DNA of 64,000 bases from Sphyrna mokarran (taxonomy: Eukaryota), in assembly GCA_024679065.1 (NCBI GenBank), contig JAGIQG010000043.1, positions 1,984,001 to 2,048,000 on the forward strand. The letters are read 5' to 3'. Below, piece by piece: positions 121 through 58,522 of this stretch. Numbering within the stretch: position 1 is the stretch's first letter; every line of letters begins with the position of its first letter. Under the pieces are notes generated by a model. It was not told where the DNA came from, did no database searches, and worked only from the letters and a program-made list of their open reading frames with translations. Made by a program: the position numbers and the translations under genes.

Positions 121-1104
121 AAAAAAATCACCATTAAAAAGTGGTGTGGTAGAAGAGGAATAATTCTCAAGGGGCATTGGGGAAAAAAAACGAGAGTTTA
201 GATTAAATTTACGATTCAAACAAATGTCACTGGCTTGACGGGCTGAATGGCCTATTTCTGTGCTGAAATTTGACATAGTTCTAAGCTTCGAGTCTATATA
301 ATCCATTTACCCGCGTTATGAGACGGGAAATAGATAGTATTCTTTCAGGGTTAAATATAACAGTGTCCAATACCAGGGCGCATCCAGTTAAGACTCGGGG
401 CACATTTAATCTTGCAGATTACATATCCATACAGCCTAAATCCCAATAACTTTGTGATATGCGTTGTCAGTCCTTAATCCCATCTCCAACGCACACATAA
501 TCACTCTAAAAATGTTTCTGTAAATTAGCTGAAGAGCCACCGGAAACATATTTGTTCTAAAGACTTTTAGAAACTGGAATCACACAGCTTACGTTTGGTA
601 TTCAAAACATTTTTCAATATTTAGTTAACTCGAGCAAAGATACATTTTGAATTATTTCTTGCACAATTACAGTGGAAAATCCAGAAGAGAATTTTAAAAA
701 CCGATATCAGAAATTAGAAGCACGAAGAGGTGAAAATGCACTACAGGCGATATTCCGTCATAGAATGGTGGACATGAAAAAATATTCATTTTTCCGCTTT
801 GGGCGTCATCATAATATCGAGCCGCCCGACTTTGCACTGGCTGCACTTTCGAAAGTTACCGTGCAACAGGAAGAATGTTTCTACAACACTAGACATCTAA
901 GAAGCACTGGCGAGTTCTCTCTCTCTCTCTTTTCTCTCTCGTTAGAGGGTTGGATCCTCGTTAAAGGCCAGGCTTGTCCCATAGCGTCTGTGGATGAAAA
1001 ATGAACTGCTTGTGTAATCCACACCATTATTATAAGGGTAGGTGAGGCCATGGGACCTCTCTATTCTATTCAATCGGTTCATGGCTGCCAGGTAGTTCAA
1101 GTCA

Positions 1105-1133
1105 CGCACACACACACACACGCGCGCACACAC

Positions 1134-1169
<36 letters not shown>

Positions 1170-1170
1170 C
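1105..1170. repeat. (CA)n microsatellite
   Basis: Seen directly in the sequence. Confidence 0.95.
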
Positions 1171-2140: not shown

Positions 2141-2199
2141 GAACATCCTTCCACACCACAAGCTTGGTATGTCTCCTGTTCTGTTCAAGACCACAAGAA

Positions 2200-2880: not shown

Positions 2881-3061
2881 GTCCCACGATTGAATTGAAT
2901 AAAATAAACTAACTTGGGAGAAGTGTTATTCGGACTCGAAAATTTCTCTATCCCTAGTTTTCTAGAATATTCTGTGTTGGTTATGAATTCTAAACCGCGG
3001 ATTAATAATGAATGAAAAGTGTCCATGTAGTTTAGCAACAATAATTCCATTCATTCACCTC

Positions 3062-3067
3062 TTTATT
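3062..3067 (-). promoter_or_regulatory. Candidate polyadenylation signal of copy 1
   Basis: AATAAA on the minus strand about 127 nt after the TM-exon stop. Confidence 0.45.
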
Positions 3068-4074
3068 TTGTTTGTGTTCTCTGGATTCTGTCAGTTCCTC
3101 ATCACTGTTCGAGTTCCTGTTAGAAAAGGGGATATAAACTGAAACTTAAAATGGGTTTATTTCACACCGAACCCGCTCAGAAGTGTCAATAACTCAGTGA
3201 TAAATGCGTGGATTGAGAGCGCCGCGATGTAACAAATTCCCCCAACCATCACTACCTCTCTGCCGGTTCCTGCAGATCCTCCTTCCGGCCACAAAGACCA
3301 ATCCCAGAAGGAGAAGAGCCGCGGCCGACAAACGCCAGAAAAGCAGTAAATGACAGGTGGGCGAGAACGGAGAATCTGCAAACAAGAATTAAACTTTCAC
3401 TCAACGAAAATCAAGTGTGGAAATAATTAAATAAGCGAAGTCTTTTTTTGTTCAATCTAACTTTCCAATTTGAAAGGAACATGGCAAAAAGTTTTGCACT
3501 GGCTCCAATCATATGACAGAGTAATATTTTTTACAATAGAACACAAGGCGAGGTTGATAGATATAGTGACAGAGAGACTGAGCATTTTTTTTTGAACAGC
3601 GCATACATCGAGATGAGGGCGAGGGGAGGGGTGCAGAAAGAAAGATTCAGAGATAGAGTAACCATATAATCCCACAGTGCAGAAGAAAACCATCCGCGCC
3701 ATCGAGGTAATGCAGAGAGAGATGGGTAGGCACTTAGATGGAGCACCATGCAACTAGAATAAAAATAGTAAACATAGAATGCTGGAGAATACTTGATAGT
3801 AAATAGAGGGAGAGAAAGAGAGATCAAAGGAGAGAGAGAGATCAATAGCTGAAGAAAGAGATGCAAACAAAGGGTGAGGGTAGACCAACTGAGAAAGCTA
3901 CGCCATGGTAAAATGGAGGATTGATACATGGAAAGGGGGAAGGTAAACAGGGGAAGATAAACAACTGGACATATCACAAAATCCCTACAACACACTGCAA
4001 GACCGTTAGGCCCATCGAACCAGTACGACAACTATCCCAACCAGGGACAAGCAACGTAAGCCCAAATATTTACA

Positions 4075-4700: not shown

Positions 4701-6000
4701 AGACAGACGAAGGGATAAATAAATAATTCTCTGGCAAGAGCAACACTGGGGAGAGAATCACACATTTTAATGTTATGCACTGACTCAGTGGTTCCTACCT
4801 TCAGGAATGTAACGGTGCCTTCGCCAGACACAAGCAGTGGGAGAGGGGAAGAGGCCATTCGGCCTATCCAGTCTAATCTGATATTTAATCACAACATGGT
4901 CTAACCGTGCACATCAATTTCACATTCCCGCCCTTTCCCCTTACCCATTAATGTATCCGTTTTCATAAATGTGCTTCAGTGATTGAACATCGACGGTATT
5001 TTTACAGTAGTGAAGAAATTTTTAAATGACAGAGAACAAATCTCTGAAAGATTGGGAGGGTTGTGATTGGGCAGAGATGAATTGAGCCTCCTGGAGATAA
5101 TCACAGAGGCATTGCTAATCTACAAATTTGGACTGTACTTCGTAACGTGTCCCATTAAAGTTAAATTCATTGATAAGTAGTCATTGTGAATAGTTACCTT
5201 CCTGAAATGAGACACTGTCACTGAGAATACTTTCACTGGAGTTGACCCGAACGGCGCAGGTACAGCGAGCGCCGGTTCTCCAAGTTTCCGCCGAGAGACT
5301 GATGTAACTCCTGACGGTGTAGGTGCCGTCCGGCTCCAGTGTCCCCGAATCGGCCTGTCCCTCGGTATCCCGCCCCGAAACATTCCAGCGGACAGGAAAG
5401 GAATCGGGAGACGCACCTCTGACCAGGCACATCAATGGGACACTTTTCATGGCGGGAATCTCATCGAATGGCGGGGTGAGGAGGAATATGTTGGGAGAAC
5501 CCGCTAAATCCGGCAAATGAAACGAAGAACAGTCATTAATTGGTGTAACAGGACACTTTAATTGCTCTGAGATAACCACTGCAATAGAATATTAATGAGA
5601 TTTACCTATAATCTCTAATTTGGAGCCATTTCCGAATATTTGGACCATGGTCTGGTAACTGCGCTTTGCGCAGTAATACATCCCAGAGTCATTTTTTCGG
5701 GATCCGTAATTATTAGTGAATAAAGACGCCCATTTTCAGAAATCTGGCTGGAAAATCTCCCGTCAGCTTGGCTGTTCTTGTATGCTCTGTAAACGAAATC
5801 CATGCCGTTTCTCCCCCTCTGTCTGTACCAGAGGACAGGGCCAGCAGCTTGACCGTTGATGCGGCAGCGGAGATTAACAGGACTCCCCACAGGGAACGTT
5901 TGAACCGGCGGAAACTGGGACACCGTGACCTGAGACATTGTAACTGGGAAAGAGAAAGAGAGAGAACAACAGTCACTTCATGTTATGGAGCATTCCCTGA

Positions 6001-6260: not shown

Positions 6261-7105
6261 GAGATGTTCCAGCACTTTTCAATTTTGCTTTGATTCTTCT
6301 CCCCCTCCGTTGACTGTTGGCGCTAAAGTCTGTTCAAGAATTTATAACTGACTTTGAAGTTCGACTTGAAAATCTTTCACTCCCAAATCGCCAGTACTGT
6401 TAAGGGAGCCCATTCACACAGCATACCTCAGGCGAAATGGCAAATCAGATTAATTCAATTCTAATCATTTTTTTCAGCAACATTTGATTCATCGTTAAGT
6501 TAAAATTGCATGCTAAATCACACCTTGTAGCACTGCAGAAGACGGATTGGTTGGGGGGGACAGTTCGGCCCTTACAAATTGAGTTGGATTTGTGAAAGGT
6601 TTCACTAATATTATTGAATTTCGTCCCTTTAAATTTGTATCCAATTCCCCCATTTTGAAAGTTCCATTTCCCCTGTTTGAAAGTTCCTGTTGGATCTGCT
6701 TCCTCCGCCCTTTGAGGCAAAACCTTCCAGATCACAACAACTCAGATGGGTTTACAAAATCCCCTAATATCCCTCTCTGTTACTTTTAGCAAATTCATGT
6801 TTCCTTGGTTCCAGAAACTCCTGCCAATGGAATCAGTTTCTGCCTCTTCGCTCTATCCATAACCTTGTCCATTCTATCTGAATATAATGAGGATATCCCA
6901 CCCTGGAAGAGATGGAGCAATGCACAGATGCCGAGGAAACCCATTGTCCTTGAGTGAGACCGTGAGACTCTGAGCCCCTGATACAAATTTCATCGAGAAC
7001 TCGCTCTTGTTCTCTCTGTGTGGGGGAGGTGTGAAATACATGCACTGTGTACATGAATGAAAACACGACAGGGGGTTGAAAATAGAACCGAGGTAGAGAG
7101 CTCTC

Positions 7106-17408: not shown

Positions 17409-19014
17409 CTTCCTGAAATGAGAAACTATCACTGAGAATACTGTCACTGGAGTTGAACCGAACGGCGCAGGTACAGCGAGCGCCGCTTCTCCAAGTTTCC
17501 GCCGAGAGGTTGATGTAACTCTTGACGGCGTAGGTCCCGTCCGGCTCCAGTGTCCCCGAATCGGTCTGTCCCTCGGTATCGCGCCCTGAAACATTCCAAC
17601 GAATGGGAAAGGAATCAGGAGGCACACCTCTGACCAAACACAACAATGGGACCCTTTCCATGGCGGGAATCTCATCCACTGGAGGGGCTGAGGAGGAATA
17701 TGTTGGGAGAACCCGCTAAATTCAGTAATGAAACAGAACACTCATTAATTGGTGGAACAGAACAATTTAATTGCTTTGAGATACTCACTGCAATTGAATA
17801 TTAATGAGATTTACCTGTAATCACTAATTTGGAGTCATTTCCGAATATTTGGACCATGTTCTGATAAATGCGCTTTGCACAGTAATACATCCCAGAGTCA
17901 TTTATTCGGGAATCCGTCATAATTAGTGAATAAAGACGCCCTTTTTCAGAAATCTGGCTGGAAAATCTCCCGTCAGCTTGGCTGTTCTCGCACACTCTGT
18001 AAATGAAATCCATGTCGATTCTCTCCCTCTGTCTGTACCAGAATACCAGAAGACACGGCCAGCAGCTTGGCCCTGGATGCGGCAGTTGAGATTAACAGGA
18101 CTCCCCGCAGCGAGCGTCTGAACCGGCGGTAACTGAGACACGGTGAGCTGTGACATTGTAACTGGGAAAGAGGAAGAGAGAAAACAACAGTCACCTCACG
18201 TTATGGAGCATTCCCTGAAGACATACAACATAGAACATTACAGCACAGAACAGGCCCTTCGGCCTTCGATGTTGCGCCGACCAATTCTGAAAAAAAAACC
18301 AATGCCTCACCAAACTAAACCATTCCCTCCTCTTCCATATACTTATCAACTAACCTCTTAAACGCCACCAAACTTGGCGCATCCACAACTGCTGCAGGCA
18401 GGGCATTCCACTCCCGAACCACCCTTTGGGTAAAGAACCTACCTCTAACGGAGCCCATTCACACGTTGAGGAGAGATGGACAATTCGGACTAACTCCATT
18501 CCAATCATTGTTGTTAATCGATTTATAAATCCAGCAGAATCGACGTTCCATTTTGTCAGTAATATTTGTTCCGTTGTTTAGTTAAAATTGCATGCTAAAT
18601 TATAGCTTATAGCACCGCAGGACACAGGAGAATCATTTGGTTCCTCAAGTATCTCTTGAATCTTTCAAATATTTAGCTAATATTACTGAATTTTCCCCCT
18701 TTAAATATGCATCCGATTCCCCCCGTTTGAAAGTTCCAATTCCTTCTTTTGAAAGTTCCTGTTGAATCTGCTTCTTCTGCCCTTTCAGGCGAAGATCACA
18801 ACTCAGATGGATTTTAAATAATCCCATCGGCCCTCTCTCTGTTATTTTTACCAAATTCTCCAATCCATGTTCCTTTGGCTCCAGAAACTCCTGCCAATGA
18901 AAAAAGTTTGTCCCTCTTCGCTCTATCCAAATCCTTCTCCATTCTATCTGAGCATAATGAGGATATCTCACCCTGAAAGCAACGAAACAGTGCACAGATA
19001 CCGAGGAAACTCAT
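17409..19014 (-). pseudogene. VJ-C1 receptor copy 2. Exons: leader 18972-19014, VJ 17815-18161, C1 17409-17715. Frameshifted; no TM exon found
   Basis: Close paralogue of copy 1. An 8-nt tandem duplication (TACCAGAA x2, 18036-18051) makes V 347 nt. C1 has a 1-nt insertion near its 5' end (307 nt). Homology with unit 1 ends near 15965, before the TM exon. Confidence 0.88.
18220..18450 (-). mobile_element. CR1 3' fragment in intron 1 of copy 2
   Basis: CR1 tail ACATAGAACATTACAGCACAGAACAGGCCC. Confidence 0.85.
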
Positions 19015-32900: not shown

Positions 32901-33699
32901 TAAGATTCTAAGGTTCTATGAGACTTGACACATTGCTTCTCTCTCCACATATGCTGCTAACCTTGCCACCTTCTTCGAGGATATCCTGAATTGAATTCTA
33001 AACGATTAATTAACATTTTCTGCAAATTGTCCGGGTGTAGTGGCCATAATAATCTTATTCAATCACCTCTTGATTCTGTTTGTGCTCTGTGCAACCTGTC
33101 TAATCCTCGCCACTGTTCACGGTGCCTGTTAGAAAGGGGAATTTAAGTTGGACCTCAAAGACTCATTGAAACCGCTCAAGGAGCAAATAATGAGTTTCAA
33201 ATGGATGGATTGAGAGCGCAAAAGGTGAAGCATCTCCCAACAGTCGCTACCTCTCTGCCGCTACCTGAATCCCTCTTGTGGCCATAAGAACCAATCCCAG
33301 AAGGAGAAGTGTCGACATCGCCAAAGCCCTGAAAAGCAGGAAAATACAATTGGTCAGCAGCGAAGAATCTGCACAATATAAAAAAAAACTTTCAATTAAA
33401 ATAATGAATTGTGGAAAGGATTAGACACTTGGAGAATTTTCTTAACTCTGCCTGCTCAAATACTCCCGAAGGCAGAAATAATTTTTTTTTTTGTCTCTGT
33501 CATTATCATTTTTTTTAGAATCAAGATCACATATAGCATTTTTTCAATAGGACACTGCATGGACAGGTGGCGGCAGAGAGGGAGGTAATTGCCAGAAATC
33601 TTATAGAGAACATTTAGAACAGAAGAGAGAAAAATGACAGATGGATTGACAGAAAGGGAGATTCGTTGATATAACAGAATCCTAGTGACTGGCCGGACA

Positions 33700-34850
33700 A
33701 ACTTCTGACAAGTAGAGAGATTGAAGGGGCAGGCTTACACTAAACTGCTCGACTTGGATACGAAAATAACAGGAACAAATAGAGAGAGCATCATCGTATG
33801 AAATGGATATAGAGAAAGATAGAGGAGAGACACAGGAATAGGGAGACACAGGGATGGAAGTTGAGCTGGGGCTCCATGCAACTGAGACATAAAAAGGTGA
33901 TATATAGATGACTGGAACAATCAATAGAAAAAGTTAGAGAGAAACACACGTGAGAGAGAAAGAGAAAAATTGAGCGAGCAAGTGAGAGAGAGATGCAGAG
34001 AGTGGGCAGAAAAGATAGGCGAGAGAGAGAAAAGAATGTCTGCGTGGCTCTTTTTTCCGGGTGATCCTGTTTCCTCCCGCAGTCCAAAGATGCGCATGTT
34101 AGGTTGATTGGCCATACTAAATTGCACGACGTATCCCAGGATATGACGGATAGAGGCATTAGCGGGGTAAATGTGTGGTGTTGTGGGTGATAGGCCTGGG
34201 GTGTGACTGTTGTTAGTGGGGACTCCGTGGGCCAAATGGCTTCGTTCTGCACATTTTTATGATTTATTGAAGGCTTATACTGAATTAGAAGACAGTTGCA
34301 TGCTCAGGGAGAGAGAGGAGGAGAAGAATCAAAGGGCAGGCAAAGAGAACTAAGGGGCGAGAGAGAGAGAACGAGAGAGAAGGTCATACAGAGAACCATT
34401 AAATAAGAAGAGAAATAAACAGACAGATCGACAGAAAGAGACATTCATAAATAGATGGAAATTTGGTATAACTCAGTTAAAAGGTTCACAAATAGAAACA
34501 GGGACAGAAGAGGTCTTAAAGAAAATGGTACAAATCAGATAGAAACAGAGAAACAGATCAGTATAGCACGATCCCGTGAAAGAGATTCGAAAAATGCGAA
34601 AAACACAGAGCAATAGATATACATGAAGAAGAATTGGTCAATATTTAGATGGAGAACCATGTAACTATAAGAGAGAAGGCCGAGGCAGAGGTGTAGAGAC
34701 TACTGGAAGCATCAATAGAAAGAAGAATCAGAGAGGGAAACGGAAAGGCAGGGAGGGACAGAGAAAGACATACGGGTAGAGAGAGGCAGAGAGACAGGGA
34801 GGCAGAGAGGGGGAGAGTGAGAGAGAAAAAGAACAAAGAATAAAGAAAAA
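33700..34850. repeat. GA-rich low-complexity region with a SINE at about 34040-34260
   Basis: Purine-rich tracts seen directly. Confidence 0.7.
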
Positions 34851-35890
34851 AACAAAGAACAAAGAACAAAGAGCAACACAGCACGGGAAACAGGCCCTTC
34901 GGCCCAACGAGCCCGCGCTGCCGTCCCAACGTCTTAATGACATATCCATGACTTTAGGCTATGCCTATTGTGGGAGATTCCCATATAGTGACCAATATAT
35001 TTGTTGGTCAAATTTGTTACGCAATCAGCCTAAAAGCACATTTTTGGGATGTGGGAGGAAACCGGAGCACCCAGAGAAAACCCACGCAACCACGGGGAGA
35101 ACGCGCAAACTCCCGCACACACAGGCCCAAATCCATGTGTCTGCACAGCACAGCGATAATCTCTGAGCTGTCATGTTGCCCATCAGATGGTCCAGTTTAA
35201 GTATACACTAACGTCCCTGTTGTAAAATGTCCCTGCATATCCCTTCTTCCACGACCCGCGGGCTGTTGGGCGGTCTGTAGTACACACCCAACATAGTAAC
35301 CTCTCCCTTCCTATTCCTCAACTCCACCCATAGTGACTCAATTCCTAAATCACCCATACCACCCTCCCTCTGCACTGCTATGATGTGATCCTTAACTAAT
35401 AACGCCACTCCCCCTCCTCTCTTCAAACCACCTCTGTCATGCCTAAAACACTTATACCCTGGAATATTCAATTGCCAGTCCTGCCCCTCCTTTAACCATG
35501 TCTCAGTCACCGCCACCACTTCTAACTTCCTCGTGAACATCATTACCTTCAGTTCATCTGTTTTGCCAGTCACACTCCTCGCATTAAAACACATGCACTG
35601 AAGACCCTCAGGCCCTCTCTGATCCTCCTTCCTACCCTCCGGACTTACCCTGTCACCCATCTCTCTCCCACTCCCAGTTCCCTCTGTCTCCCCACCCCCC
35701 CTCCATATTAGTTTTAACCCTGCCAAAACACTCCAGCTAACCTCCCAGCTAAAATATGGGTGCCCTTCCCAGACAACTGCTCCCCGTCCCTCTTGTATAG
35801 ATGCCCCCCCTCATGAAGACTTCCCAATGGTCTATGAATCTGAAACCCTCTGCCCTACACCAATCCCTCAACCATGCTTTTAGTTGGAGC
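34830..35890 (-). mobile_element. Internally deleted CR1: ORF1 end and APE endonuclease (35208-35726) fused to the 3' UTR
   Basis: APE motifs CFNARS, AVTETWL, RGGGVALLVK, GVYYRPP; UTR matches 12000-12325. Confidence 0.85.
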
Positions 35891-35984
35891 ACGGGAAACA
35901 GGTCCTTTGACCCAATGAGCTCGTGCCGCCTCCTCGATGTTTCCAGTTTTACCTATTGTCCCTCTCTATGTTTATAGAACTATG

Positions 35985-36250
35985 CATTCAAAAAGAGACA
36001 AAGAGGGAGACAATGAAAGAGGGAGACACAAACAAACAGAAGGGCAGTGAAAAAGAGAGACAGGGAGCCAGGGAGAGAGAGAGGGAGAGACAGAGTTAGA
36101 AAGAGGGACAGAGAGAAAGAGGGAGAAAGAAAGAGACCGAGACACACACATAAAGAAAGAGAGAGAGATGTAGAGAGAGAAATAGAAAGGGAGAGAGGGA
36201 GAAAGAGAGAGAGATGCTCAGACAGATAAGTAGAGAGAGAGGAAAGATGC
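35985..36250. repeat. (GA)n-rich degenerate microsatellite
   Basis: Seen directly in the sequence. Confidence 0.85.
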
Positions 36251-36749
36251 AAACTGTAAGATGAGTAGACATAGTGAACGAGAGACATAGGTTAAACTGC
36301 GCTGGGACATGATTACATAGATTGAGAGAGAAAATCTAGAAAGGGGAGAGAGATGGTCGGTCATCTATAGCACAAAGATAAACAGACAGGCAGTGTTTAA
36401 ATGAGTATGAGACAAGTAAGTTTAAGAACGGGTAAGTAAATGACTGCATACAGCGGGTTAATATAAAGTCACTCTGGGAACGTAATCAAACTCTTCAATT
36501 TCACACATCGCTAGATCAACCACTGACAACCAACAGTGTCAATATTGCCTAGTTAGGCACAAGAACACAAAACGAAACAGCAGGAGACCACCCTGACCTT
36601 TCAGGCTGCTCCTCTATGCAATAATGGTGACTGATTATCAACAAATCTTCAAGCTTCCGGCTATTATCCAAATATATTAACGCCCCCTCCCACCCCCCGC
36701 CACTTCCTATGCAATGCCTACAACGCTATCTCACTGACTGAACATCCAT

Positions 36750-38250
36750 GTGGGTGGCACGGGAGCACACGCGGGCAGCTCGGGTCATTGTCTGTATGGC
36801 GTTTGCACATTGTCCTCGTGTCTGCGTGAGTTTCCTCTGGGTACCCCGGTTTCCTCTCACAGTGCAGGTTGATTCGCCATGATAAAATTGACCCTTAGTG
36901 TCCTACGATGCTTAGAATAGAGGAATCAATGGGTAGTAATATGTAGGAATATGGGGGTAGAGTTTGGGTGGGATTGTGGTCGGTACAGACTTGAAGGGCC
37001 TCTTTCCGCACTGTAGGGTTCTATGAATCTATGACTCCCTGGAGTACAAATAAAGAAGTACATTTTCAGAATGTGAAACTTTGAGAAACCTGTGATAGGA
37101 TAATGATTGATTGAATTTATAGAATCATAGAAACCCTACAGTGCTGAAGGAAGCCATTCGGCCTATTGACCACGCACCAACAAAAATCCCACCCAAAGCC
37201 TGTAATCCCATAACCCCACTTATTTATGTTGCTAATCCCGCTGACACTAAGGGGCAATTTACCATGGCCAATCCACTTAGTTTATACATCGTTGGACACT
37301 AAAAGGAAATTTAGCAAGGCCAATCCATCTAGCTTACACATCTTTGGACAATAAATGCTTTTGTAGCACGGTCAATCCAATTAACTGCCACATCTTCGGA
37401 CTGTGGGATGAAATTCAAGCACCTGGAGAAAATCCAAGCAGACACGGGGAGAACGTTCAGACTCCACACAAATAGTGACTAGAGGTTGAATTGAGCCTGG
37501 ATCTCTGGCGCTGTGAAGCAGCCATGCTGGTCTTTGTGCCACCATGCCACCGATTGGAAATTAGAGAGATTTGGAATTTACAAGAGACACTCACTGTGAA
37601 GTCTCTAATTAACATGGAGTGCATTAACGGGTGATCATTGTGAATACCGATATCTCTGAGCTGAGACACTTTCACTTAGAAGATGATCACCAGAGTTGAT
37701 CTGAGCAGGCCAAGTACAGCAAGCGCCGCTACTCCAAGTTTCTGTGGAGACGCTGATGTAACTGGTGATGGTGTAGTTCCCATTCAGCTCCAGAGTCCCT
37801 GAATTCATCTGTACCCAGATATCCCGGGATTTAGTAGCATGACGATTTAAATGATCGTCATGCTAAATCGTCCCCTGGTGTTCCAGAATGTGTAAACCAT
37901 GTGGATGGGCCATGTTAAATTGCCTTTAAAGGCCAAAGATGTGTCGGTTAGCTATTGGACGTGCGAAATTGCCCCTTACCATCCAAAGATGAGTGGGTTT
38001 GGTGGAATGATCATGCTAAATTGTCATTTAGTGTCGGAAGGTGTGCAGTTTCGGTGGACTGGCCATGCTAAATTGGCCTTTAGTGTCCAAAGGTGTGCCG
38101 GTTATGTGGATTGGACATGCTAAATTGCCCTCAGTGTCCGGGAGATTAGTGGAGTACGTACAAAAGGTGACGTAGATATGGCACGTTTGGGATTATTGAT
38201 TGTGATTGGCTGATTGGCCGAATATCCTATTTCTATGCTGGAGGTATTCG
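36750..38250. mobile_element. V-SINE cluster (+ 36750-37030, - 37120-37550, + 52-bp array 37855-38250) flanking the C1 remnant
   Basis: V core and 52-bp units. Confidence 0.75.
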
Positions 38251-38911
38251 ATTATTCTAATTCAGTATATATTTTTTGTTAATTGTTATTGATTGATTCA
38301 TACACTACATTTTCCCCTTCGTTAATATGTGTTTTATTGCAAATTAAACGTGAATGCGAAGCTACATAATCATACATTGCACAGCACAGCTGGAGACCAT
38401 TCCACCATTCGTGCCCCTGCTGGACCATTGCAGATTTATCTAATTAGTCCCCGCCCTCTCTTTTCTTGTTTCCCCCATATCTCTGGCACTTTGGCCCCAT
38501 CACATTCTTAAGCAAACAGCCTCTTTTGAAATTTCCGATTGAATCTGCCTTTCGGGCAGTGACTTCCATTTGACAATAATATGTTTAAATTAATCCTTCC
38601 CGTTTCCAGACATTTACCAATTGTCATCAATCTCTTTCACCCTCAGTAAAAATAGTATCTTTATTTACTGTACAGAAATCATTATCCACTCATCTGAATT
38701 TGTCAAGGATATCTCACCTTGGAAGAGGTGGAGCAGTGCACAAACGCCGAGCAAACTCATTGTCCATGAACCAATCGGCGGGTTTCTGAATACTAATCCA
38801 AACCTCACTGCGAAATCTCTGTGTGGGAGACGTGACATATGCAGTGCAAATACCGTGTTTATTAATGCATACACGATTGGTGTTACAAAATAGAACTGAG
38901 GCAGAAAGCTC

Positions 38912-47482: not shown

Positions 47483-47552
47483 ATGTCCCAGCAATCTTTA
47501 TCGCTGATAATCATTCTCCAACTGTTGTGGGCTTATAGTGATTGTGTTCCAG
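47483..47552 (+). CDS. Leader exon MSQQSLSLIIILQLLWAYSDCVP
   Basis: ATG in an AAAATG context, hydrophobic core, phase-1 donor CCAG|GTGAGA. Confidence 0.85.
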
Positions 47553-49135
47553 GTGAGAAGTTTAAATTGTTGTCAGCCAAATTAGATTTTAAGCATTGGT
47601 GTCTCAAATCGGCTTCCAGAGGAATTTCGAGGCAACTTCATTGCAATGTTATTGAAGGCCTTACTTGTCATTAATAAATAAACTTTACTTTTACATCGAC
47701 ACTGCAATGAAGTTACTGTGAAAATCCTCTCGTCGCCATATTCCCGCGCTATGAGGGTACACTGAGGGAGAATTTGGCACGGCCAACGCATCGAACCAGC
47801 TCACTGTGGGAGGAAACTCCGGCATAGAAACGGGGAGAACGTGTACAGAGAGTGGTCCCAGCCAGGAGTTGAACCCGAGTCCCCAGCGTTGTGAGGCAGT
47901 GGTGACGGCAACCTTGCCAACCGGTGACGGTACTGCAAAATCCATAGAAGGGATTTTGTCTCTTCTTTGTTTCCTCCTTTCAAGCGAAGAAAACACAAAT
48001 TGGGAAGTAAATCTAAGGAAGTATCATTGAACTCATTATGAGATTGTTCTTAATTTACAGGCGACTTATTTTGCCAAACGGCTGCTTTCTATGTCGAAAT
48101 AATCTGTGGTAATGTGTCAATAATCTCTCTGGTTACAGATTCTGAGCTGTCTCAACCTGAAAGCTCCTTCACAGTGACAGCTGGAATCGGCCAGACGGTC
48201 AATTTATCCTGTCACTACACTTACGAGGTGAAAATGGTGACTAACTATTTCTGGTATAAACAACGTGTTGGTGGAATCCCTAAAAAAATCGATACTACGA
48301 ACTGTCAGGGGGATGAGTGTAAGTTTATTTCCAAAAAAGGCAACGGCAAATGTGAATTGATACTGGAAATTCGCAATGTCCAGGCGAATGACTTGGGTTC
48401 CTACTATTGTGCTCATAAGTATGGCTCTGCACCGCTCCAGAATGGACCCACACTACTGGTTGGAGGTAAGGGAGCAAGTGAAATGAATTCAGATTGCGCA
48501 TAGAATTTCAAATTTGACGAAAGTAATCATTCACTGCGTCCCAATCTCTGTTCCAGACAGTTCCACCAACAAGACGGCTGTGCAGATCTTTGCCCCGCCG
48601 GCTGAGCTGGATGTGAATGATACTGTGCCCTTAGTGTGTTTGGTCAGTGGAGTTTCTTCCAACCAGATTGCCGTTTTCTGGAATATTTCCGGTCTGGTAA
48701 CTGAAGGATCGAGTGATCTCGGGATAGTGGAGGAGGGCGGCACCCACAGCATCAGGAGTCATGTTATGGTGTCGGGAGTAACCTGGAATAGAGGCGCTGT
48801 TTGCACTTGTGTTGTTCAACTGGGGACTCCAGGGAAATACTGGACGAAGAGTGTGTCGAATCTCAAAACAACAGGTAAGTAGAAAGGTAAAATATTACTC
48901 TGTACATTGAAGCCTTCTATTCAACTTTAGAAACAATTGGATTAATTTAATCGATCCTAGGCATCTGAGGATATATAGGTGTGTACATAAATATGCCTGT
49001 ATGATTATGCATGTCTGTTCTTGATGTGTGTGCGAGTGTGTTTATGTGCGTGCTTGTAACTGTGTGATGTGTTTGTGTATGTGTATGCATTTGTGTATGT
49101 GTCTGTGTGTGTGTCCCTGTGTCTGCATGCGTGTA

Positions 49136-49172
<37 letters not shown>

Positions 49173-52100
49173 CTGTGACTATATACCTCTCTATGTGTTT
49201 GTATGTGTAGATATATCTCTGAGCATTTGTGTGTTTGATTTCATCTGATTTATTATTGTCTCATGTATCAGTACGCATTTATAAGTATTGTTTCGTGTGC
49301 ACTACACAACAAAGCATACAGTGCACAGAGGACATCGGGGGGAAGGAAATGAGAGGGTACAGAATGCCGTGTTACAGTCATAGCTAGGGTATAAAGAAAG
49401 ATCGGGTTAATATAGGGTTCAAAATTCTGATGGCAGCCCGGAAGAAGCCGTTCTTGAGTCGGTAGGTATGTGGTCTCCACATTGATATATGTGTATAGTT
49501 ATATATATATATATATATATGAATTTGCTTGTATCAGACTATGTAAATCGATATACAGCTGGGCCTGTGTTCACGCGTGTTATATCTGACTGTGTGTGTC
49601 TATGTGTGTGTATAGGTAAATGTGTGTGTGTGAGTGTGTGTGTGTATGTGAAAAGATAAATATCTGAGCACGTGTATGTCTGTATGTAAGTGTAGGTACA
49701 TACCTGACCCTTTGTATGTCTAAATGTGGGTACAGAAAAATATAGATATCTGTGTTCACACGTGTGTTATATCTGACTGTGTGTGTGCATTCAAATATTA
49801 AAGTATCTGAGACTGCATTAGAATGGTAACAGCCCACAACGGGCAGCACAGTTAGCACGGCAGCTTGACAGCTCTAGGGACCTGGGTTCAATTCCCGACT
49901 TGGGACTCATTCCCCTCGTGTCTACGTGGGTTTCCTCTGGGTGTTCCAATTTCCTCCCACAGTCCAAATTTGTCCGGGTTCAGTTGCTTGGCCAGGCTAA
50001 AAACCGCGTTTGTGTCCTGAGATGTGTAGGTTAGAAGGAGTAGAGTGCAAACATGTAGGGATATGGGGGTAGGGCCTGGGTGGGATTGTGGTCAGTGCAC
50101 ACTGGATGGGCCGAATGGCCTCTTTCTGTACTGTAGGGTTTCTATACTTCTTGTTTGATAGATACTCTCCCGTTTCACTTTATAATTCTGAGAAAATGTA
50201 CGGATCTTTGAACAATGCACCCAGATAGATCCCTTTCAGCCTATTATATCTCGACTCCCTCTTCGAAAAAGCTATCCCGTCCGCCCAACATCTTCCTGCC
50301 AAGCCTTTTCAAGTTTTCTCCTTGTTGTCAAGATGTGATTCCTGGATTTTTTTTTTGTTTGCTCCCACCTTCCTTTTCGAAAAGTGAATTTAGAAATGGA
50401 GGAGAGATCAGTTCTACACTGCAGGCACTTTTGCAAACAGACAATAGACAAGAGATGAAATTGACATGTTTGGCCGGAAGGTTGGTGAATGAATTGACTT
50501 CATTTTGCTTCCTGTTCATCAATTTACAACGGCCTACTCACACATACAGATAATTTGAAAGTAAATTTAACATCCTGATATCAGTAACTTAATATATCAT
50601 TAATCAACCAGAGCATAATAGAATCCTACAGTGCAGACGGAGGCCATTCGGCCTATCGAGTCTACAGCGATAGCAATCCTACCCAGCCGAACCCCATAAC
50701 CCCATCAGTTTATACTAGCTAGTTCCTCTGAAACTAAGGAACAATTTAGCATGGCCAATCCACCGAACCCACACATCTTTGGACTGTGGGAGGAAACCAG
50801 ACTACCTGGAAGAAACCCACGCAGAGAAAGTGAAAACTACACACTGAAAATGATCGGAGCCGGGAATTGAACCCAGACCAGTTGTCAGGTCGTAATGCTA
50901 ACCCTTTGTGTCACCATGCCGTCTCATGATCGTATGGAAGTAGACTCGATGGGCTGAATGGACTATATCCGTTCCAATGCTTTTTCGTTGTAGGAATTAA
51001 GAGCAAATTTTGAACTTGGATTGTTGGAAACGATTCCAAACTGTCAATCACACGGTAAATGATTTCCTGGCCCTGAATCTACACGAATCATACAAACCTG
51101 CAGTAAAGAAGGAGACACTTGGATCATCAAATCTTCACCGACTTGCCATCAGAGCATTTACCGAGTTCCCTATCCCTGTAACCTCTCCTATTAATCCCAC
51201 ATCTTGGACACTAAAGGACACTAAGTTTAGCATGACAAATCCAGGGAATGGCAAATTGTGTACAACGAAGGGCCACTTTAGCATGGCCATTCCAACCAAA
51301 CCGAACATTGCTGAACACTAAGGGGTAATTTAGTACGGCCAATTCAACTATCCTGTCAACAGATTTTGAGAAGACTTACTTTATATTAAATTGACCTTTC
51401 TCGAGATGGACATCTCGAGATGTCCAACTAACAACTTTGGAACCAGAGTACCTGGAGGAAAGACAAGGACAGAGCGGGGCAAGTGTTACCTCCACACTAG
51501 CAGGCACCCAAGGCGGGAATTGAACGTGGCGCCCTGGCGCTGTTTGGCGGTAGGGCTAAGTGCTGTGCCACAGTGCTGCCACCTGTAAATCATTGAAGAT
51601 GGCCGATGGTTAGGAAAGCATAGAAGGTTCAGAGCTTTTGAAATTGAGTCACAGAATCGAAAAAGAGTGAAGCAAATTCCTGCTCCATCGGCCAGCACAA
51701 TCGAAGTCCCCACTTACCCCAGACATTTTGTTTCCCGCATCTCTCCATGGAGAAACGTACACAAACCTGAAATCCCTTGCCAACTGAATCAAGAACAGCT
51801 TTTCTCTTGCTGCCGTCAGGCTTTTGAATGGATATAGCTTTTGTTAAAGCAGAAACTGCTGGAAAAACTCTGCAGGTCTGACATTAACTGTGGGGACAGA
51901 AAACAGCCCATGTTTTGAGTCTAGATGGCCCTTCTCCAGAGCTCTGACACAGGGTCATTTAGACTCCAAATATTGGCCCTTTTCTCTTCCCATAAGTGCT
52001 GTCAGCCTTGCTGAGATTTTTCATTTTTTTCTGTATTATTTTTCCAATTCCAATATCGGCAATATTTTGCTTTTATATTAAGCTGTTTTTTCTCGACACC

Positions 52101-55100
52101 CAAAATATGACTGCACCAATATGTCCTCCATCCCCTTCTATCCCTCTCCATTATGAACTCTATTGGCGATCTGTTTCGTCTGTGTAGCGTGCAAAAAACA
52201 TATTTTTTTTCACTGCACCCCAATACACGTGTCAATAATAAATATAGATATGATAGTGATTTTTAAAGGGCGTATTGAGAAATCCATGAATAGGATGGTA
52301 ACAGAAGGATATGGTCCACGGAAGTGTAAGGGATTTACGTTCAGTTGATCTGCATGGTTCGATGCACGTTTAGAGAGCCGAAGAGTCAATCTCTACTCTA
52401 TAATATTATTTGCCCTTTGTTCTTAATAAATCAAACCAGATCAAATCAAATCTATATGTATCTATGAACAATACATGTAACACACAAGAAACAATGCTTT
52501 TCACAATACCAATGACTGTGACAATGATAATACATCAAATTAATAGCAAAACTTCGCAAAATTCTGCTTCCGTCTTAACGGTGTTCAGTTAATGGCGCTG
52601 CAATTTAAGAGAAATAAGAAGCGATTGCAGAAACAAGAATTACCAGGATGGTCATAAATATAGAACATAGAACATTACAGCGCAGTATAGGCCCTTCGGC
52701 CCTCGATGTTGCGCCGGCCAGTGGACCCTCTTACCTAAACTATTCCAATATCATCCATATGCCTATCCACCGAACATTTGAGTGCCCCCAAAGTAGGCGA
52801 GTCCACAACTGCTGCAGGCAGGGCATTCCACGCTCTCAGCACCCTCTGTCTAAAGAACCTGCCTCTGACATCCGTCCTATAACTACCACCTCTTAATTTA
52901 AAGTTATGTCCCCTCGTGTTGGTCATCACCATCCGAGGAAAAAGGCTCTCACTATCCACCCTATCCAATCCCTTGATCATCTTATACGCCTCAATTAGGT
53001 CACCGCGTAACCTTCTTCTCTCTAATGAAAATAACCTCAGGTCCCTCAGCCTTTCCTCATAAGGCCTTCCCACCATACCAGGCAACATCCTGGTAAACCT
53101 CCTCTGCACCCTTTCCAATGCTTCCACATCTTTCTTATAATGCGGCGACCAGAACTGTACGCAATACTCCAAGTGCAGCCGCACCAGAGTTTTGTACAGT
53201 TGTAACATAACCTCACGGCTCCTAAATTCAATCCCTCTAACAATAAAAGCTAACACACCGTACGCCTTCTTAACAACTTTATCAACCTGGGTGCCAACTT
53301 TCAAAGAGCTATGTACTTGTACCCCAAGATCCCTCTGCTCGACAACGCTATTAAGGGTCCTTCCATTAGCCCTATATTTCATATGCCTGTTATTCCTACC
53401 AAAGTGAGTCACCTCACACTTATCCGTATTAAATTCTATTTGCCACTTCACGGCCCAGCTCTGCAACCTCTGCAAACTGTAGCATCCATCCTCGCTGTCT
53501 ACAACTCCCCCCACTTTGGTATTGACAGCAAATTTACTAATCCAACCCTCTACACCCTCATCTAGGTCATTTATAAAAATGACAAACGGCAGTGGCCCTA
53601 AAACAGATCCTTGAGGTACACCACTTGTAACTGCACTCCAGGTTGAATATTTCCCATCAACCACCACCCTCTGTCTTCTATCAGCTAGCCAATTCCTAAT
53701 CCAAACTACTAAATCACCTTCAAAAATATGAGGAACTTCAGTTAACTGGATAGCTTTGACAAATTGTTTAGCTAGCACAATGTTGAGAGGAGATGTGAGG
53801 AGGGAGTTGAGAATCCTGAAATGATTGGACAGAGCAGAGAGGAAAACTGATTCACATAGGCAGGGAGAGCTAAGAACAAGAGGGAGATATTATAAATAGA
53901 TTGGCAAAAGAAACACTAGCGGCACCAGTGGCAGTTAACTGTCAGTCACGATCAACTTGGTCTGATTTCATTTATTATTCTCACATGCATTGGGATACAG
54001 TGTAAAGTACCTTTCCTTGCGTTCTATACAGACAAAGTATACCTTCATTGAGTACATTAATTTTGTTTATTATTGTCACATGTATTGGGATGCAGTGAAA
54101 AATATTGTTTCTTGCGTGCTATACAGACAAGGCATACCGTTCATAGAGTACATAGATTTGATTTGTTATTGCCATATGTAATGGGATACAGTTAAAAATA
54201 TTGCTTCTTGCGCATTCTACAGATAAAGCATACCGTTCATAGAGTACATAAATCTGATTTATTGTTGTCACATGTATTGGGATACAGTGAAAGGTATTAC
54301 TTCTTCCGCACTTTACAGAAATAGCATACTGTTCAGAGTACATAGATTTAATTTGATTAATTATTGTCACATGTATTGGGCTATAGTTAAAATTATTGTA
54401 TCTTATTGACCATGTAGACAAAGCGTTTCGAGTAGTTGGGGAGAAGGAAAGGAAAATAGGCAGAATCTGCTTTGCAGTCACTCATAATTTTTCGAGAAAG
54501 GTCAACTTAATATAAAGTATGTCTATTCAAAGTCTGATGGCGAAAGGGAAGAAGCTGTTCTTGCTCAAACTTTTGCATCTTTTCCCCGGTGGAAGAATAT
54601 GGAAGAGAGAATATCCGGGGTGCATGAAGCCTTGATTATGCTGGCTGTTTTTCAGAGGCAGCAGAAAGATTGCTCAGAGTTAATGGTTGGAAGATTAGTT
54701 TACATGATGGATTGGACTTCGTTCACGACATTTTGTGGTTTTCTTGGGGTCTTGGAGTAGAAGTTGTGATATGCCATGCTGCATCTGTGTAAATTGATGA
54801 GAGTTGGAGCAGAATTTCTTTACGCCGCTGAGAAAGTGGATATTTTAGTGGGTTTTCTTGATGGTAGCATCTGCGTGGATGGAGCAGTGCAGGTTATTGG
54901 TGATCAGAACGCCCAGAAAGGTAGGTATGAATATGATCGGCGCAACTTGTGGGCCGAAGGGCCTGTTTGTGCTATTTGTGCTATGTTCTAAAATGGCGTT
55001 TTGGAATCTAGAACGAGAATCTGAAAAAAGATGGCGTGCATGGATTCAATAAGCACTTCCAAAAGTAGAATTGAACAAACACATTGGTTTCAGGACTACT

Positions 55101-58100
55101 GGTGAAACAAAGAGTTGAAGTTGGGACAATTAAAAAGACCAAATTGGAAGGATGGGCTGAAGATATTCTTTCTGGACATTATCGTCCTATGATTCTGTTC
55201 ACAAATAAGATTTTTCTACGATGTTTTCTACATGTCTACGGAAATGTGTGTTGGCCGTGGAAACCGTCCAGAGGAGGTTCACAAGAACGATCCCTGACAT
55301 GAAGCGCTTGTATATGAGGAGTGATTGAGGACTCTGTGTCTGTTCTCCTTGCAGTCTAGACGGATGAGGCGGGGAGGTGGGGGTGGAATCTTATTAAAAT
55401 TGACAGGATACTGCGAAGTCTGGATAGAGTGGACGTGGAAAGGATGTTACCACTATAGGAAAAACTAGAACCAGAGGGCATAACTTCAGTCCAAAGGGAC
55501 GATCCTTTAAAACAGAGATGAGGACGATTTTTTTTTTTTTTTAGTCAGCAAGTGCTGAATCCGTGGAACTTGTTGGCGCAGAATGTGGGGGTAGGTCATT
55601 GAATGTTTCTAAGACAGAGTTGGATCAGTTCTTGATGAGTAAGAGGATCATGGGTTGTGTAGAAAAGGCAGGAAAATGGAAATGAGGGACATATCAGCCA
55701 TGATCGAATGGCGGGGCAGATTAGCCAAAGGCCGAATTCTGATCCTGCATCTTATGGTCTTATGCATTGTGCATACTGATACACTGTGAATGTTGGAAAA
55801 CTCTGACACTGTTGTTAATTAGATTGTCTCCACTAGCAAATATTGTGTAATCATTTCTATTCTGCGTATTCATTCTCCACTCTCCATTCCACTAATTGTG
55901 TTTTATTTCCCACATTCATTTATCTCTATAGAATGGTGCAGACAGACGGTTTTTGTTGGAATTCCTATCCTGGTCCTACTGATTCTACTATTGGTTCTTC
56001 TTTCCATTTGGAGTTGTAAAAATCGCAGATCAGGTGAGGATTAATGATTATCTGGGAGACTTTAATATCTCTTTCTCCAATACGATTTACTCTTTGGAGT
56101 TTTTAATTAGCTAATTTTACGTTCTTTTATTTTAGAAGACAGACGCAAAGGAACCCAAGGATCCCAGGATGAAACGTGAGTAGAACCATGTGCAAAGTTC
56201 ACCATCGCCCATTTTCTCTGAATTACATTTTGTCAAACCTGTTTCCATTAGCAAACTGATTCCAGCGACGTGAGTCTCTATTTTCCAAGATTTCTGTAAG
56301 ATCCCGAGAGAATCCTGCTTTCAATAGCGCCTGAGGTAGAACATCTAAGATCTAACATTTGTTTTTGGTTTCTTTTTCCTCATCCTATTTTAGCTTGAAT
56401 GAGAGAAAGCAACGACAGGGACGTAAAGAGCGACAAACGAGTAAGTTTCCTTGAAATGTTGGTGGAAAAGAAGTGTCAGATTGAAAGAATTAAAGTGGAA
56501 GTTGATTGATATTGGCGTTCCTGTGGAAAATGCACAGACAGTTAACTGCCAAAACATGTTTGAAAGAAAATTTAAATGACTGCACTACTTGAAATTTGCA
56601 AGAAAAAAGAAACATATCAACGAGGCTTTTGGCCTTGTATCTCCGCAAAAAACCCCACAAGAATAGCAGATATACAGAGAACAATTGTGCATTCTTCCTG
56701 ATAAGACTATTGCCCTGTTAGCAAAAGGAATCTAATGGGTTTTAGTCCTTGTATGGAAAATGCTGAGTTAACTCATGATTGTCAGTTACCTGCATGCATT
56801 TGCTAACATTGAAACAGGAAGGCAGTGTACGCCAAACGGCCTTTCGGACCTGCTCTGGCTAACCATCAAATTCAATTTCCCAATTTCCCCCTTGCCCCTA
56901 TATCTTCTGATCCCTTCAGCCTTATGAGCTATATCTAATTACTTCTTGAAATTGCACAACTTTACGTCCTCAACTAATTTATGTGACAGTTAATTCCACA
57001 TATTCATTTCACCTCATTTCCAAAACGCTTCCCACGTGCCACGATCTATCACCCCTTGATTTGGACTCCTTCTACATCTGAAATTTCTTTCTCAGTCTAC
57101 CCTGTCGAATCCTGTAAAACTTTTATGAGCTTCTATGAGATCCTATCTCTCTCTTCTAAACTCCAGTGAATATAACATTAACTGCCTTAGTCTCTCCTCA
57201 GATAACAGCCCTGCCATCCCAGGAATCCTCTGTTTTCTCTCTACAACGGGGATCTCGTACCTCAGATAAGGATATCAAAACTGCCCACAATACTCCTCAC
57301 GAACGCCCTATACAATTCCAGTAAAAATATTCCATTCCTATATTCAAATCCTTCCGCTATGAAAACTAACATACCATGTTTTTGTATTTATTGCACGTTG
57401 AAAAAAAAAAAAAAAGGTCGGTTGACTGATTGGTCAAGGCATTGGCCCGAAGGATGAACCAGAGAATGGCTCCCCTTCTTTGTTTCATTAAATGCGCCTC
57501 AATGTATCTTCCTTATGCCCACATTATATGCTAATGACCGTCAGCAAGATCAACAATCACTCGTGTACCTGTTGGTTTCAATAAAGGGAAAATTGTTGAT
57601 ATTAATACAGGTAGTGATATATCACCTGGGCAATAAGTGGCAAGTGCTGGTGTGAGGTTTTCCCCATCCAAGCATTTGCCACACAACATAGACAATACAA
57701 ATAAGAGCAGGAGGAGGTCATCCTGTTGTTTGATTCTGCTGTGCTATTCATTATAGTCATGGATGATCGACCAACTGAATAGCTTCATAGCGCCTTCCTC
57801 CCAGATCCTTTGATCCCCTTCGCCTCCAGAACTAGATCTCACTGCCTTTGAAGTGTAGTATAAGATCTGTCGAAATTTAATTGGATTTGTGTTAATGATT
57901 GCGGTGGCACAGAGGTTCACACTGCTGCCTCACAACGTGAAAGATCCATATTTAATTCCCGGATTGGGTCACTACCTGTGCAGAGTCTGTCTGCACGTTC
58001 TTCTTGTGCCTGCGTGGGTTCCCTCCGGATGCTCCAGTTTCCTCCACAGTCCGAAAAATGGGTTGGCTCAGTGCATTTGTGATGCTAATTCTCCCTCAGT

Positions 58101-58522
58101 GCCGGTGAACAGGAAGCCGGAGTGTGACGATTTTCACAGTAATCTCATTGCAGTGTTAATGTGAGCCCACATGTAACACTATTAAATAAAATTTAACCTG
58201 CTGCATTATCGGTAGCCATGGGCACACCGTGGCTTGATGTAATTATAGATCATATAGATTGGGTGATATTTCAATTCATAATTGTGAAATTTACACACAG
58301 GGAATCGTCATCAAACAGAGGCAAACTTAACAGCGCAGCATGGAATTCAGGTGAGTGCATTGAACCCCTTGTGATGCATTAGAATTAACTTTGGGGGGAA
58401 AAAAAACATTATTTTAACCGTCTCGATTATGACTGTTGAATATATTTCAGGATGGACCTCTCTACGCCTCCCTGGATTTGGCTGCATTGGAAAAAAGATC
58501 AAGGAAGAAGAACATGAAATGA
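47483..58522 (+). CDS. Intact 8-exon V-C1-TM-cytoplasmic Ig-superfamily receptor, inhibitory type, 341 aa. Exons: 47483-47552, 48139-48465, 48557-48874, 55932-56033, 56136-56175, 56394-56440, 58301-58350, 58451-58522
   Basis: All introns are GT-AG with matching phases (1,1,1,1,2,1,0). Exon lengths 70+327+318+102+40+47+50+72 = 1026 nt form one open frame ending in TGA at 58520-58522. Domains: signal peptide, V-set, C1-set, hydrophobic TM, and a charged tail ending DGPLYASLDLAALEKRSRKKNMK. Confidence 0.85.
47680..47925 (-). mobile_element. V-SINE in intron 1 of the + strand gene
   Basis: V core and tRNA-like head. Confidence 0.75.
48139..48465 (+). CDS. V-set Ig exon including the G strand (degenerate J-like LQNGPTLLVG)
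   Basis: Acceptor TTACAG; motifs VNLSC, FWYKQ, LEIRNVQANDLGSYYC; donor GGAG|GTAAGG; 327 nt, phase 1-1. Confidence 0.92.
48557..48874 (+). CDS. C1-set Ig constant exon
   Basis: Acceptor TTCCAG; motifs VQIFAPP, VPLVCLVSG, VFWNISG, THSIRSHVMV, TWNRGAVCTCVV; donor ACAG|GTAAGT; 318 nt. Confidence 0.92.
49025..49790. repeat. (TG)n and (TA)n microsatellite-rich intronic region
   Basis: Seen directly in the sequence. Confidence 0.9.
49840..51580. mobile_element. V-SINEs (+ 49840-50150, - 50620-50920, - 51080-51580)
   Basis: V core and 52-bp units. Confidence 0.7.
52660..53720 (-). mobile_element. 5'-truncated CR1 (RT C-terminal half)
   Basis: ORF 52735-53778 with GVPQGSVLGP; tail AGAACATAGAAC. 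Confidence 0.92.
55300..55765 (+). mobile_element. Degenerate CR1 3' fragment
   Basis: Eroded 3' motifs and CTTATGGTCTTATG tail. Confidence 0.7.
55932..56033 (+). CDS. Transmembrane exon EWCRQTVFVGIPILVLLILLLVLLSIWSCKNRRS
   Basis: Acceptor CTCTATAG and donor TCAG|GTGAGG; uncharged hydrophobic stretch followed by basic KNRR; phase 1-1. Confidence 0.88.
56136..56440 (+). CDS. Two small cytoplasmic exons: 56136-56175 (EDRRKGTQGSQDET) and 56394-56440 (LNERKQRQGRKERQT)
   Basis: Polypyrimidine-TTTAG acceptors; consensus donors GTGAGT and GTAAGT; the only open frame of the second exon matches the phase left by the first. Confidence 0.75.
56830..57380 (-). mobile_element. Degenerate CR1 3' fragment
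   Basis: Eroded ORF2 C-terminal motifs. Confidence 0.65.
57900..58195 (+). mobile_element. V-SINE
   Basis: tRNA-like head, V core, A-rich tail; another copy on the minus strand at about 59200-59450. Confidence 0.75.
58301..58522 (+). CDS. Last two cytoplasmic exons: 58301-58350 (RNRHQTEANLTAQHGIQ) and 58451-58522 (DGPLYASLDLAALEKRSRKKNMK-stop)
   Basis: ACACAG acceptor and CAG|GTGAGT donor convert phase 1 to phase 0; 100-nt intron; TTTCAG acceptor; YxxL motif in frame. Confidence 0.78.

What the first reader, a model, noticed from the sequence alone, without database searches (positions are those of the whole stretch)
5606..5680. Germline-fused J segment (YYC...IFGNGSKLEI) with a J-type phase-1 donor and a ~100-nt V-C intron
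After frame correction, copy 1 has a CDR3-like loop and an FGxG diglycine bulge. Copy 2 has FGND and the + gene has LQNG, a graded decay of the motif. The V-C introns are 102, 99 and 91 nt, too short to hold D/J/RSS arrays. The conserved tiny intron supports common ancestry of the two subfamilies.
Basis: partly seen in the sequence, partly recalled or inferred. Interest (0 to 1): 0.7.

Follow-up and report, generated by a model that had tools for sequence, protein, structure and literature searches.

The report
Shark never-rearranging antibody-like receptor family
The J-like stretch is part of a broken copy of a shark gene for an antibody-shaped surface receptor, one of about 75 neighbouring copies of an ancient vertebrate family that likely was never cut into V and J pieces and likely acts as an inhibitory immune receptor.

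Summary
The title's reading, a germline-fused J, is not supported. This is the G-strand end of a single VJ exon in a leader-V-C1-TM-tail receptor gene. Copy 1 is a pseudogene in a 2.25-Mb shark array of about 75 genes of two types, A (TxYxxL tail) and B (YxxL tail). All 37 measured A loci have the same 11-residue CDR3. No split V, orphan J or sense-strand RSS turned up, and 0 of 23 leaders carry the Ig octamer. True germline-joined lambda genes in the same genome differ: CDR3 5-12, J-C intron about 2.4-5.3 kb, octamer in 9 of 10. Trees place the family outside Ig, TCR V and UrIg, with orthologues in rays, chimaera, sturgeon, lungfish, amphibians, turtles and alligators. The 'graded decay' is not a series: FGND is private to pseudogene copy 2 and its twin, and LQNG is the old norm of shark type B. 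A and B introns do not align. Best reading: primordially joined, probably the shark PRARP/VJC1 family (membership recalled, not sequence-tested). One very ancient germline join cannot be excluded.

The parts
5606..5680 (-). The finding: Cys104, 11-residue CDR3-like loop and J-like G strand (FGNGSKLEII) at the 3' end of the copy 1 VJ exon; phase-1 donor at 5605
5606..5943 (-). Copy 1 (type A) single VJ exon, V-set; 1-nt frameshift near 5701
5504..5605 (-). 102-nt VJ-C1 intron (GTAAAT...TTAG)
5198..5503 (-). Copy 1 C1-set exon, open
6902..6944 (-). Copy 1 leader exon (split leader)
3256..3375 (-). Copy 1 connecting-peptide Cys and TM exon; carries an Arg that most A paralogues lack
3059..3116 (-). 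Copy 1 first cytoplasmic exon; 58 nt against 59 in 11 of 11 paralogues, giving an early stop
942..987 (-). Copy 1 last exon; the TLYARL motif of paralogues is disrupted
17409..19014 (-). Copy 2 (type A pseudogene): leader from 19014, VJ 18161-17815 (8-nt duplication, FGND), 99-nt intron, C1 17715-17409 (+1 frameshift); no TM exon of its own found
33057..38760 (-). Copy 3 remnant (type A): leader, half of C1 (37811-37653), TM; no V exon found
47483..58522 (+). Type B gene, open in all 8 predicted exons: leader 47483-47552, VJ 48139-48465 (LQNG), 91-nt intron, C1 48557-48874, TM 55932-56033, three small cytoplasmic exons, last exon 58451-58522 with PLYASL

Best explanation
The stretch is the CDR3-like loop and J-like last strand of a single V exon in a broken copy of a shark V-C1-transmembrane receptor gene, from a family that was likely joined from the start and never passed through RAG rearrangement. 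Shown: exon layout, pseudogene lesions, about 75 copies of two types, fixed CDR3 length in type A, no RSS or Ig octamer found, orthologues across jawed vertebrates. Inferred: the types A and B arose by duplication before sharks and bony vertebrates split; intact members are surface receptors, probably disulfide-linked through the Cys before the TM, that signal through one ITSM-like (A) or ITIM-like (B) tyrosine motif. Diversity comes from gene duplication and point substitution in the loops, not from junctions. Most likely identity: the PRARP/VJC1 family.
For: Array: about 41 A and 34 B C1 exons on C1027:0.61-2.85 Mb plus one divergent A+B pair on C894 (counted). CDR3: 11 residues in 37 of 37 measured A loci and 26 of 26 distinct open A exons; 8 in 17 of 20 distinct open B exons. 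The A J strand is the most conserved region (dN/dS about 0.3, rough). No split paralogue: family V hits run to the J end or resume after a frameshift, and 31 of 31 DNA hits of the J end sit on V exons. RSS: none on the sense strand in 77 loci, against 11 of 15 TCR V controls and perfect RSSs in kappa and sigma clusters. Germline-joined lambda control: CDR3 5-12 (13 of 17 loci parsed), J-C about 2.4-5.3 kb, octamer in 9 of 10; family octamer 0 of 23. Trees: family C1 (41 rows) apart from Ig/UrIg C1 (19 rows) at 99/99; Ig+TCR+UrIg V on one side of a 93/92 branch without the family; type A one clade of shark and bony-vertebrate rows, SH-aLRT 87. Orthologues named.
Against: Constant CDR3 length shows descent from one joined ancestor per type, not that the ancestor was never split. 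Shark lambda is also all-joined without split paralogues (PMC2193156, passages). CDR3 length does vary across species (A 7-11, B 8-10) and in 3 of 20 distinct open B exons here (7, 10, 12). The trees have only 95-111 columns, the V split is not starred, and no TCR, MHC, SIRP or tapasin C1 was in the C1 tree. Own-genome V searches scored 150 of 480 and 150 of 199 candidates. No PRARP sequence or paper could be obtained; no bird hit appeared among 45. Expression and signalling were not tested.
Confidence: 0.8

Rival explanations
1. Ancient germline join: an early rearranging Ig/TCR-like cluster was joined by RAG in the germline once, before sharks and bony vertebrates split, then duplicated into types A and B and lost Ig promoter and intron features.
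For: Antigen-receptor-like layout: split leader, VJ, C1, Cys, TM. Closest folds are Ig light chains and TCR chains at 20-26% identity. Germline joining exists in sharks (PMC2193156, passages), and 450 My could erase its traces.
Against: The V tree keeps all Ig, TCR and UrIg V together without the family; C1 is separate at 99/99. Tyrosine-motif tails and uncharged TMs are unlike TCR. No split relative was found.
Confidence: 0.12
2. Recent shark germline-joined Ig light-chain cluster, the literal sense of the finding's title and of the database labels ('kappa light chain-like').
For: FGxG motif, YYC, V-C1 layout; automatic names.
Against: TM and cytoplasmic exons; orthologues in tetrapods; fixed CDR3; about 100-nt intron against kb; no octamer; outside IgL in all three trees.
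Confidence: 0.02
3. Primordially joined, but a different VJ-C1 family from PRARP (for example SIRP-related or unnamed).
For: PRARP could not be compared by sequence; eight literature searches gave only mentions of PRARP; no bird homologue.
Against: One V plus one C1, two partner genes with ITIM- and ITSM-like tails, a juxtamembrane Cys and presence in bony fish, amphibians and reptiles match the recalled PRARP description. SIRPs have two C1 domains (recalled).
Confidence: 0.15

Closest known systems
PRARP1/PRARP2 (Fu et al. 2019, PMID 30770416) and Xenopus VJC1 genes (Ohta et al. 2019, PMID 31492741); papers not held, titles seen in reference lists, content recalled
   Same: Non-rearranging VJ exon, C1, TM, ITIM- or ITSM-like tail, two partner genes, Cys for disulfide pairing, present in bony fish, amphibians and reptiles.
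   Different: Here about 75 copies in a shark; the recalled description is a chicken pair and does not list cartilaginous fish. Shark type B has lost the first Gly of FGxG.
UrIg / UrIg2 (PMC12227049, sections 4, 7, 12)
   Same: Single-exon VJ, split leader, C1 domains, non-rearranging, elasmobranch.
   Different: UrIg has 3 and UrIg2 9 or more C1 domains, and both are elasmobranch-only. UrIg-like genes lie elsewhere here (C1548:111.4 Mb, C446:25.5 Mb; labels inferred) and branch apart.
Germline-joined shark Ig lambda (type II) and NS4 light chains (PMC2193156, passages)
   Same: V and J in one exon, many clusters.
   Different: They have kb-long J-C introns, an octamer, variable CDR3 and no TM; they group with IgL.
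NKp30 (NCR3)
   Same: VJ single exon, multicopy in sharks.
   Different: No C1 (recalled); NCR3-like exons lie at C1548:96.7 Mb and form their own branch.

Membership tests
Germline-joined Ig cluster | Domains nest within an Ig isotype | tested here: not met
Germline-joined Ig cluster | Split V/J paralogues with RSS, or heterogeneous junction lengths | tested here: not met
   lambda control. Type B shows 3 length variants among 20 distinct open exons.
Germline-joined Ig cluster | Ig octamer upstream of the leader and kb-scale J-C intron | tested here: not met
   0 of 23 against 9 of 10; 78-104 nt in 74 of 77 loci against about 2.4-5.3 kb
PRARP / VJC1 | Single VJ exon with J-like segment followed by C1 and TM | tested here: met
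   (definition recalled)
PRARP / VJC1 | Two partner genes with ITIM- or ITSM-like tails and a juxtamembrane Cys | tested here: met
   A: TLYARL; B: LYASL, turtle ILYAHL; Cys invariant in 18 of 18
PRARP / VJC1 | Orthologues in bony fish, amphibians and reptiles | tested here: met
PRARP / VJC1 | Sequence orthology to chicken PRARP1/2 | tested here: inconclusive
   No bird protein among 45 hits of a word-limited search; paper not held
PRARP / VJC1 | Linkage to MHC or an MHC-paralogous region | tested here: inconclusive
   All 53 MHC-I hits are on C1548, none on C1027, C1016 or C894; C1027 is a separate 2.9-Mb contig; flanks showed LINEs and GPCR-like ORFs
PRARP / VJC1 | Surface expression on lymphocytes; disulfide-linked dimers | not testable with these tools
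   needs RNA and protein work
UrIg / UrIg2 | Three or more C1 domains; grouping with UrIg | tested here: not met
   one C1; separate branches

The most novel reading that the evidence does not exclude
The family is the surviving sister of the gene that RAG split, a TCR-shaped two-chain receptor (V-C1-Cys-TM, A with B) kept across non-mammalian jawed vertebrates. Sharks expanded it into a germline repertoire of dozens of A and B chains whose pairing gives NK-like combinatorial recognition without rearrangement.
Probability: 0.2. Interest if true: 0.8.

Novelty: new member of a known kind. Interest (0 to 1): 0.45.

Why it matters
Single-exon VJ-C1 genes are the sought models for the pre-RAG antigen receptor (PMC12227049, Introduction). 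This family has the TCR-like layout with one V, one C1 and a TM, is pan-gnathostome, is mislabelled as Ig chains in databases, and has a large shark expansion that eight searches of the held literature did not find described. The side-by-side control against true germline-joined lambda genes gives a simple test for telling the two origins apart. The exon flagged here is itself in a dead copy.

Tried and rejected
RNA evidence: no RNA holder listed; no evidence either way. A/B heterodimer prediction with Mustelus P0036 and P0001: no verdict, score 0.49 against a control of 0.48. TCR constant exon sought in about 240 kb of C949: not found, so it is missing from the C1 tree. Synteny from 120 kb of flanks: uninformative. 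Chicken PRARP by homologue search: no bird hit. Early idea that type A is an activating subfamily with a TM Arg: rejected, most A paralogues have an uncharged TM and a TLYARL tail. A possible hinge exon near 4805: frame does not fit, dropped. Sequence homology of A and B introns: none. An RSS-like 12-spacer site before an A-type V fragment at C1027:839.2 kb: lies mid-domain in a CA repeat, not at Cys104; taken as chance. Lambda intron regex failed for most loci, so those lengths come mainly from hit coordinates. Papers not held: Fu 2019, Ohta 2019, Flajnik 2023, Flajnik 2024. The supplement of PMC10751288 holds no PRARP entry.

Full report
Observation. The coordinates are exact. On the minus strand the copy 1 V exon (5943-5606) ends YYCAKRSYQTMVQIFGNGSKLEII plus one base, followed by GTAAAT, a 102-nt intron and a C1 exon at 5503-5198. 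Copy 2 has FGND and 99 nt; the + gene has LQNG and 91 nt. Copy 1 is a pseudogene: a 1-nt deletion in V, a 58-nt first cytoplasmic exon where 11 of 11 paralogues have 59, giving an early stop, and a disrupted last-exon tyrosine motif. A twin 690 kb away shares these lesions, so they are likely genomic. Copy 2 has two frameshifts and no TM exon of its own. The + gene is open through eight predicted exons. Leader, V, C1 and TM exons all end in phase 1, so the donor phase is not a J signature.

Context. The window is G000:C1027:1984001-2048000 in a 2.77-Gb genome. The nearest named homologues are shark proteins, Mustelus at about 80% in C1. The two C1 queries find about 41 type A and 34 type B exons, partial ones included, interspersed over C1027:0.61-2.85 Mb. 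They also find one divergently oriented A+B pair on C894 and copies on small contigs that may be redundant (counted by hand). Full-length homologues are leader-V-C1-Cys-TM-tail. A ends in TLYARL (ITSM-like), B in LYASL (ITIM-like), and the TMs are normally uncharged. A model of a type A chain shows two Ig domains and a helix, nearest to Ig light and TCR chains at 20-26% identity; inter-domain geometry is uncertain (pTM 0.51).

Test 1, junction length. Of 90 family loci examined, 77 gave a donor by pattern. Twelve did not: four have variant donors and introns of about 166-178 nt, the others are partial, broken, missed by the pattern or have a long intron. One locus had no C1. All 37 A loci have Cys-x11-Phe, as do 26 of 26 distinct open A exons. 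B has 8 residues in 17 of 20 distinct open exons, with 7, 10 and 12 once each; the 12 looks like a tandem duplication. Across species A ranges 7-11 and B 8-10. The genuine germline-joined lambda genes on C772 give 5, 8, 9 and 12 (13 of 17 loci parsed, one corrected by eye).

Test 2, split paralogues and RSS. Family V hits reach the J end or resume after a frameshift; the next hits are TCR and Ig V at 41% or less (150 of 480 and 150 of 199 candidates scored). All 31 DNA hits of the A J end lie on V exons. A consensus RSS scan gave 1 strict hit in the window against 0-4 in ten shuffles, none near copies 1 and 2. Six of 77 loci had a loose hit, all on the antisense strand. The same scan found RSSs at 11 of 15 TCR V controls and in kappa and sigma clusters. 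This was a consensus scan, not an information-content model.

Test 3, Ig leftovers. V-C introns are 84-104 nt in 34 of 37 A loci (others 184, 185, 2336) and 78-99 nt in 40 of 40 B loci; one further B gene has about 2.1 kb. Lambda J-C distances are about 2.4-4.2 kb in seven pairs (hit coordinates) and 5.3 kb in one. A perfect Ig octamer precedes 9 of 10 lambda genes, 121-123 nt before the ATG in six placed, and 0 of 23 family leaders. PMC2193156 (passages) reports that joined NS4 genes keep the octamer and sit among split relatives, but also that some light-chain types are entirely joined; absence of split paralogues is therefore not decisive alone.

Test 4, ancestry. A profile search of 1.84 billion representatives and name look-ups of 20 hits show A and B relatives in rays, chimaera, sturgeon, paddlefish, lungfish, caecilian, newt, Xenopus, turtles and alligators, plus a third type in coelacanth and sturgeon. 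B is multicopy in turtles and alligators. In the C1 tree 41 family rows stand apart from 19 Ig and UrIg rows at 99/99. In the V tree 18 Ig, TCR and UrIg rows form one side of a 93/92 branch without the family (split V rows trimmed after Cys104). The concatenated tree has A as one clade spanning sharks and bony vertebrates (87) and B likewise except paddlefish (83). Columns are few, and TCR, MHC, SIRP and tapasin C1 are missing.

The two side claims. The 'graded decay' is not a series: A has FGNG in 33 of 37 loci, FGNS in 2, FGKG in 1 and FGND in 1, the twin of copy 2. B has LQNG as its norm, five loci with FGDG, L(Q/R)xG in other sharks and F(A/Q)KG or LGKG in rays, while reptile B keeps FGNG in 31 of 41. 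The first Gly was likely lost early in elasmobranch B. The introns of A and B do not align better than shuffles (z 0.8 and 0.6; A against A z 17).

Mechanism. Shown: fixed VJ exons, birth-and-death duplication, and loops more variable than the J strand (A: CDR1 dN/dS about 2.3, CDR3 about 1.0, J about 0.3; pairs not independent). Inferred: intact genes encode surface receptors that dimerise through the juxtamembrane Cys and recruit phosphatases or adaptors through one tyrosine motif, with ligand specificity varied by paralogue.

Comparison. The layout, partner genes, tails and distribution match my recollection of PRARP1/2 (Fu 2019) and VJC1 (Ohta 2019). Neither paper was held; PMC10751288 and PMC11599192 (passages) only name PRARP among joined VJ genes, and no bird sequence was recovered. 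So it works like PRARP and is probably PRARP, unproven. It is not UrIg or UrIg2 (PMC12227049, abstract and sections 4, 7 and the first part of 12) and not NCR3. Searches found no description of a shark array; subscription papers and most supplements were not visible and may hold one. Earlier scan notes reach a similar view but are not independent support.

Verdict. A real feature in a dead gene copy, best read as primordially joined (0.8), with a single very ancient germline join as the remaining rival (0.12). New member of a known kind; interest 0.45.

Noticed in passing
window 942-3375 (-); twin in L172; window 33369; L064, L067: Copy 1 and its twin combine a TM Arg, an early stop in the tail and a destroyed tyrosine motif, the pattern of an activating-type derivative. 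The V frameshift makes plain pseudogene decay equally possible. A few other A copies also have a TM Arg.
   Followed up: partly
G000:C894:2365048-2386278: A lone divergent A+B pair away from the array. Its type A gene groups with ray and catshark genes and may mark the ancestral locus; GPCR-like ORFs lie nearby.
   Followed up: partly
P0101, P0133, P0262 and unnamed hits: A third family type (extra Cys in CDR1, and in CDR3 in some) in coelacanth, sturgeon and a teleost; not searched for in this shark.
   Followed up: no
G000:C1027:2.68-2.69 Mb: Segmental duplicate of the window's copy 1 and copy 2 block with the same frameshifts; copy 3 remnant duplicated near 2.605 Mb.
   Followed up: partly
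L125 (G000:C994:512-515 kb): A joined VJ exon with one C1 about 2 kb downstream in the IgH/TCR region, a divergent light-chain-like gene.
   Followed up: no
L097 (C446:25.49 Mb), L098 (C1548:111.44 Mb), L126-L127 (C1548:96.7 Mb): Two UrIg-like genes and an NCR3-like exon array; labels inferred from resemblance.
   Followed up: partly
window 48294-48320; C1 exons 5249-5257 and 48803-48811: Type B V domains carry an extra Cys pair in the C'-D region, conserved to reptiles; both types have CxC in the C1 F strand.
   Followed up: no
window 4060-4620, 7550-8130, 14312-14955, 16321-16780, 53964-54450: Tandem arrays of 52-nt and 96-nt repeat units, plus LINE fragments, make up much of the intergenic DNA.
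   Followed up: no
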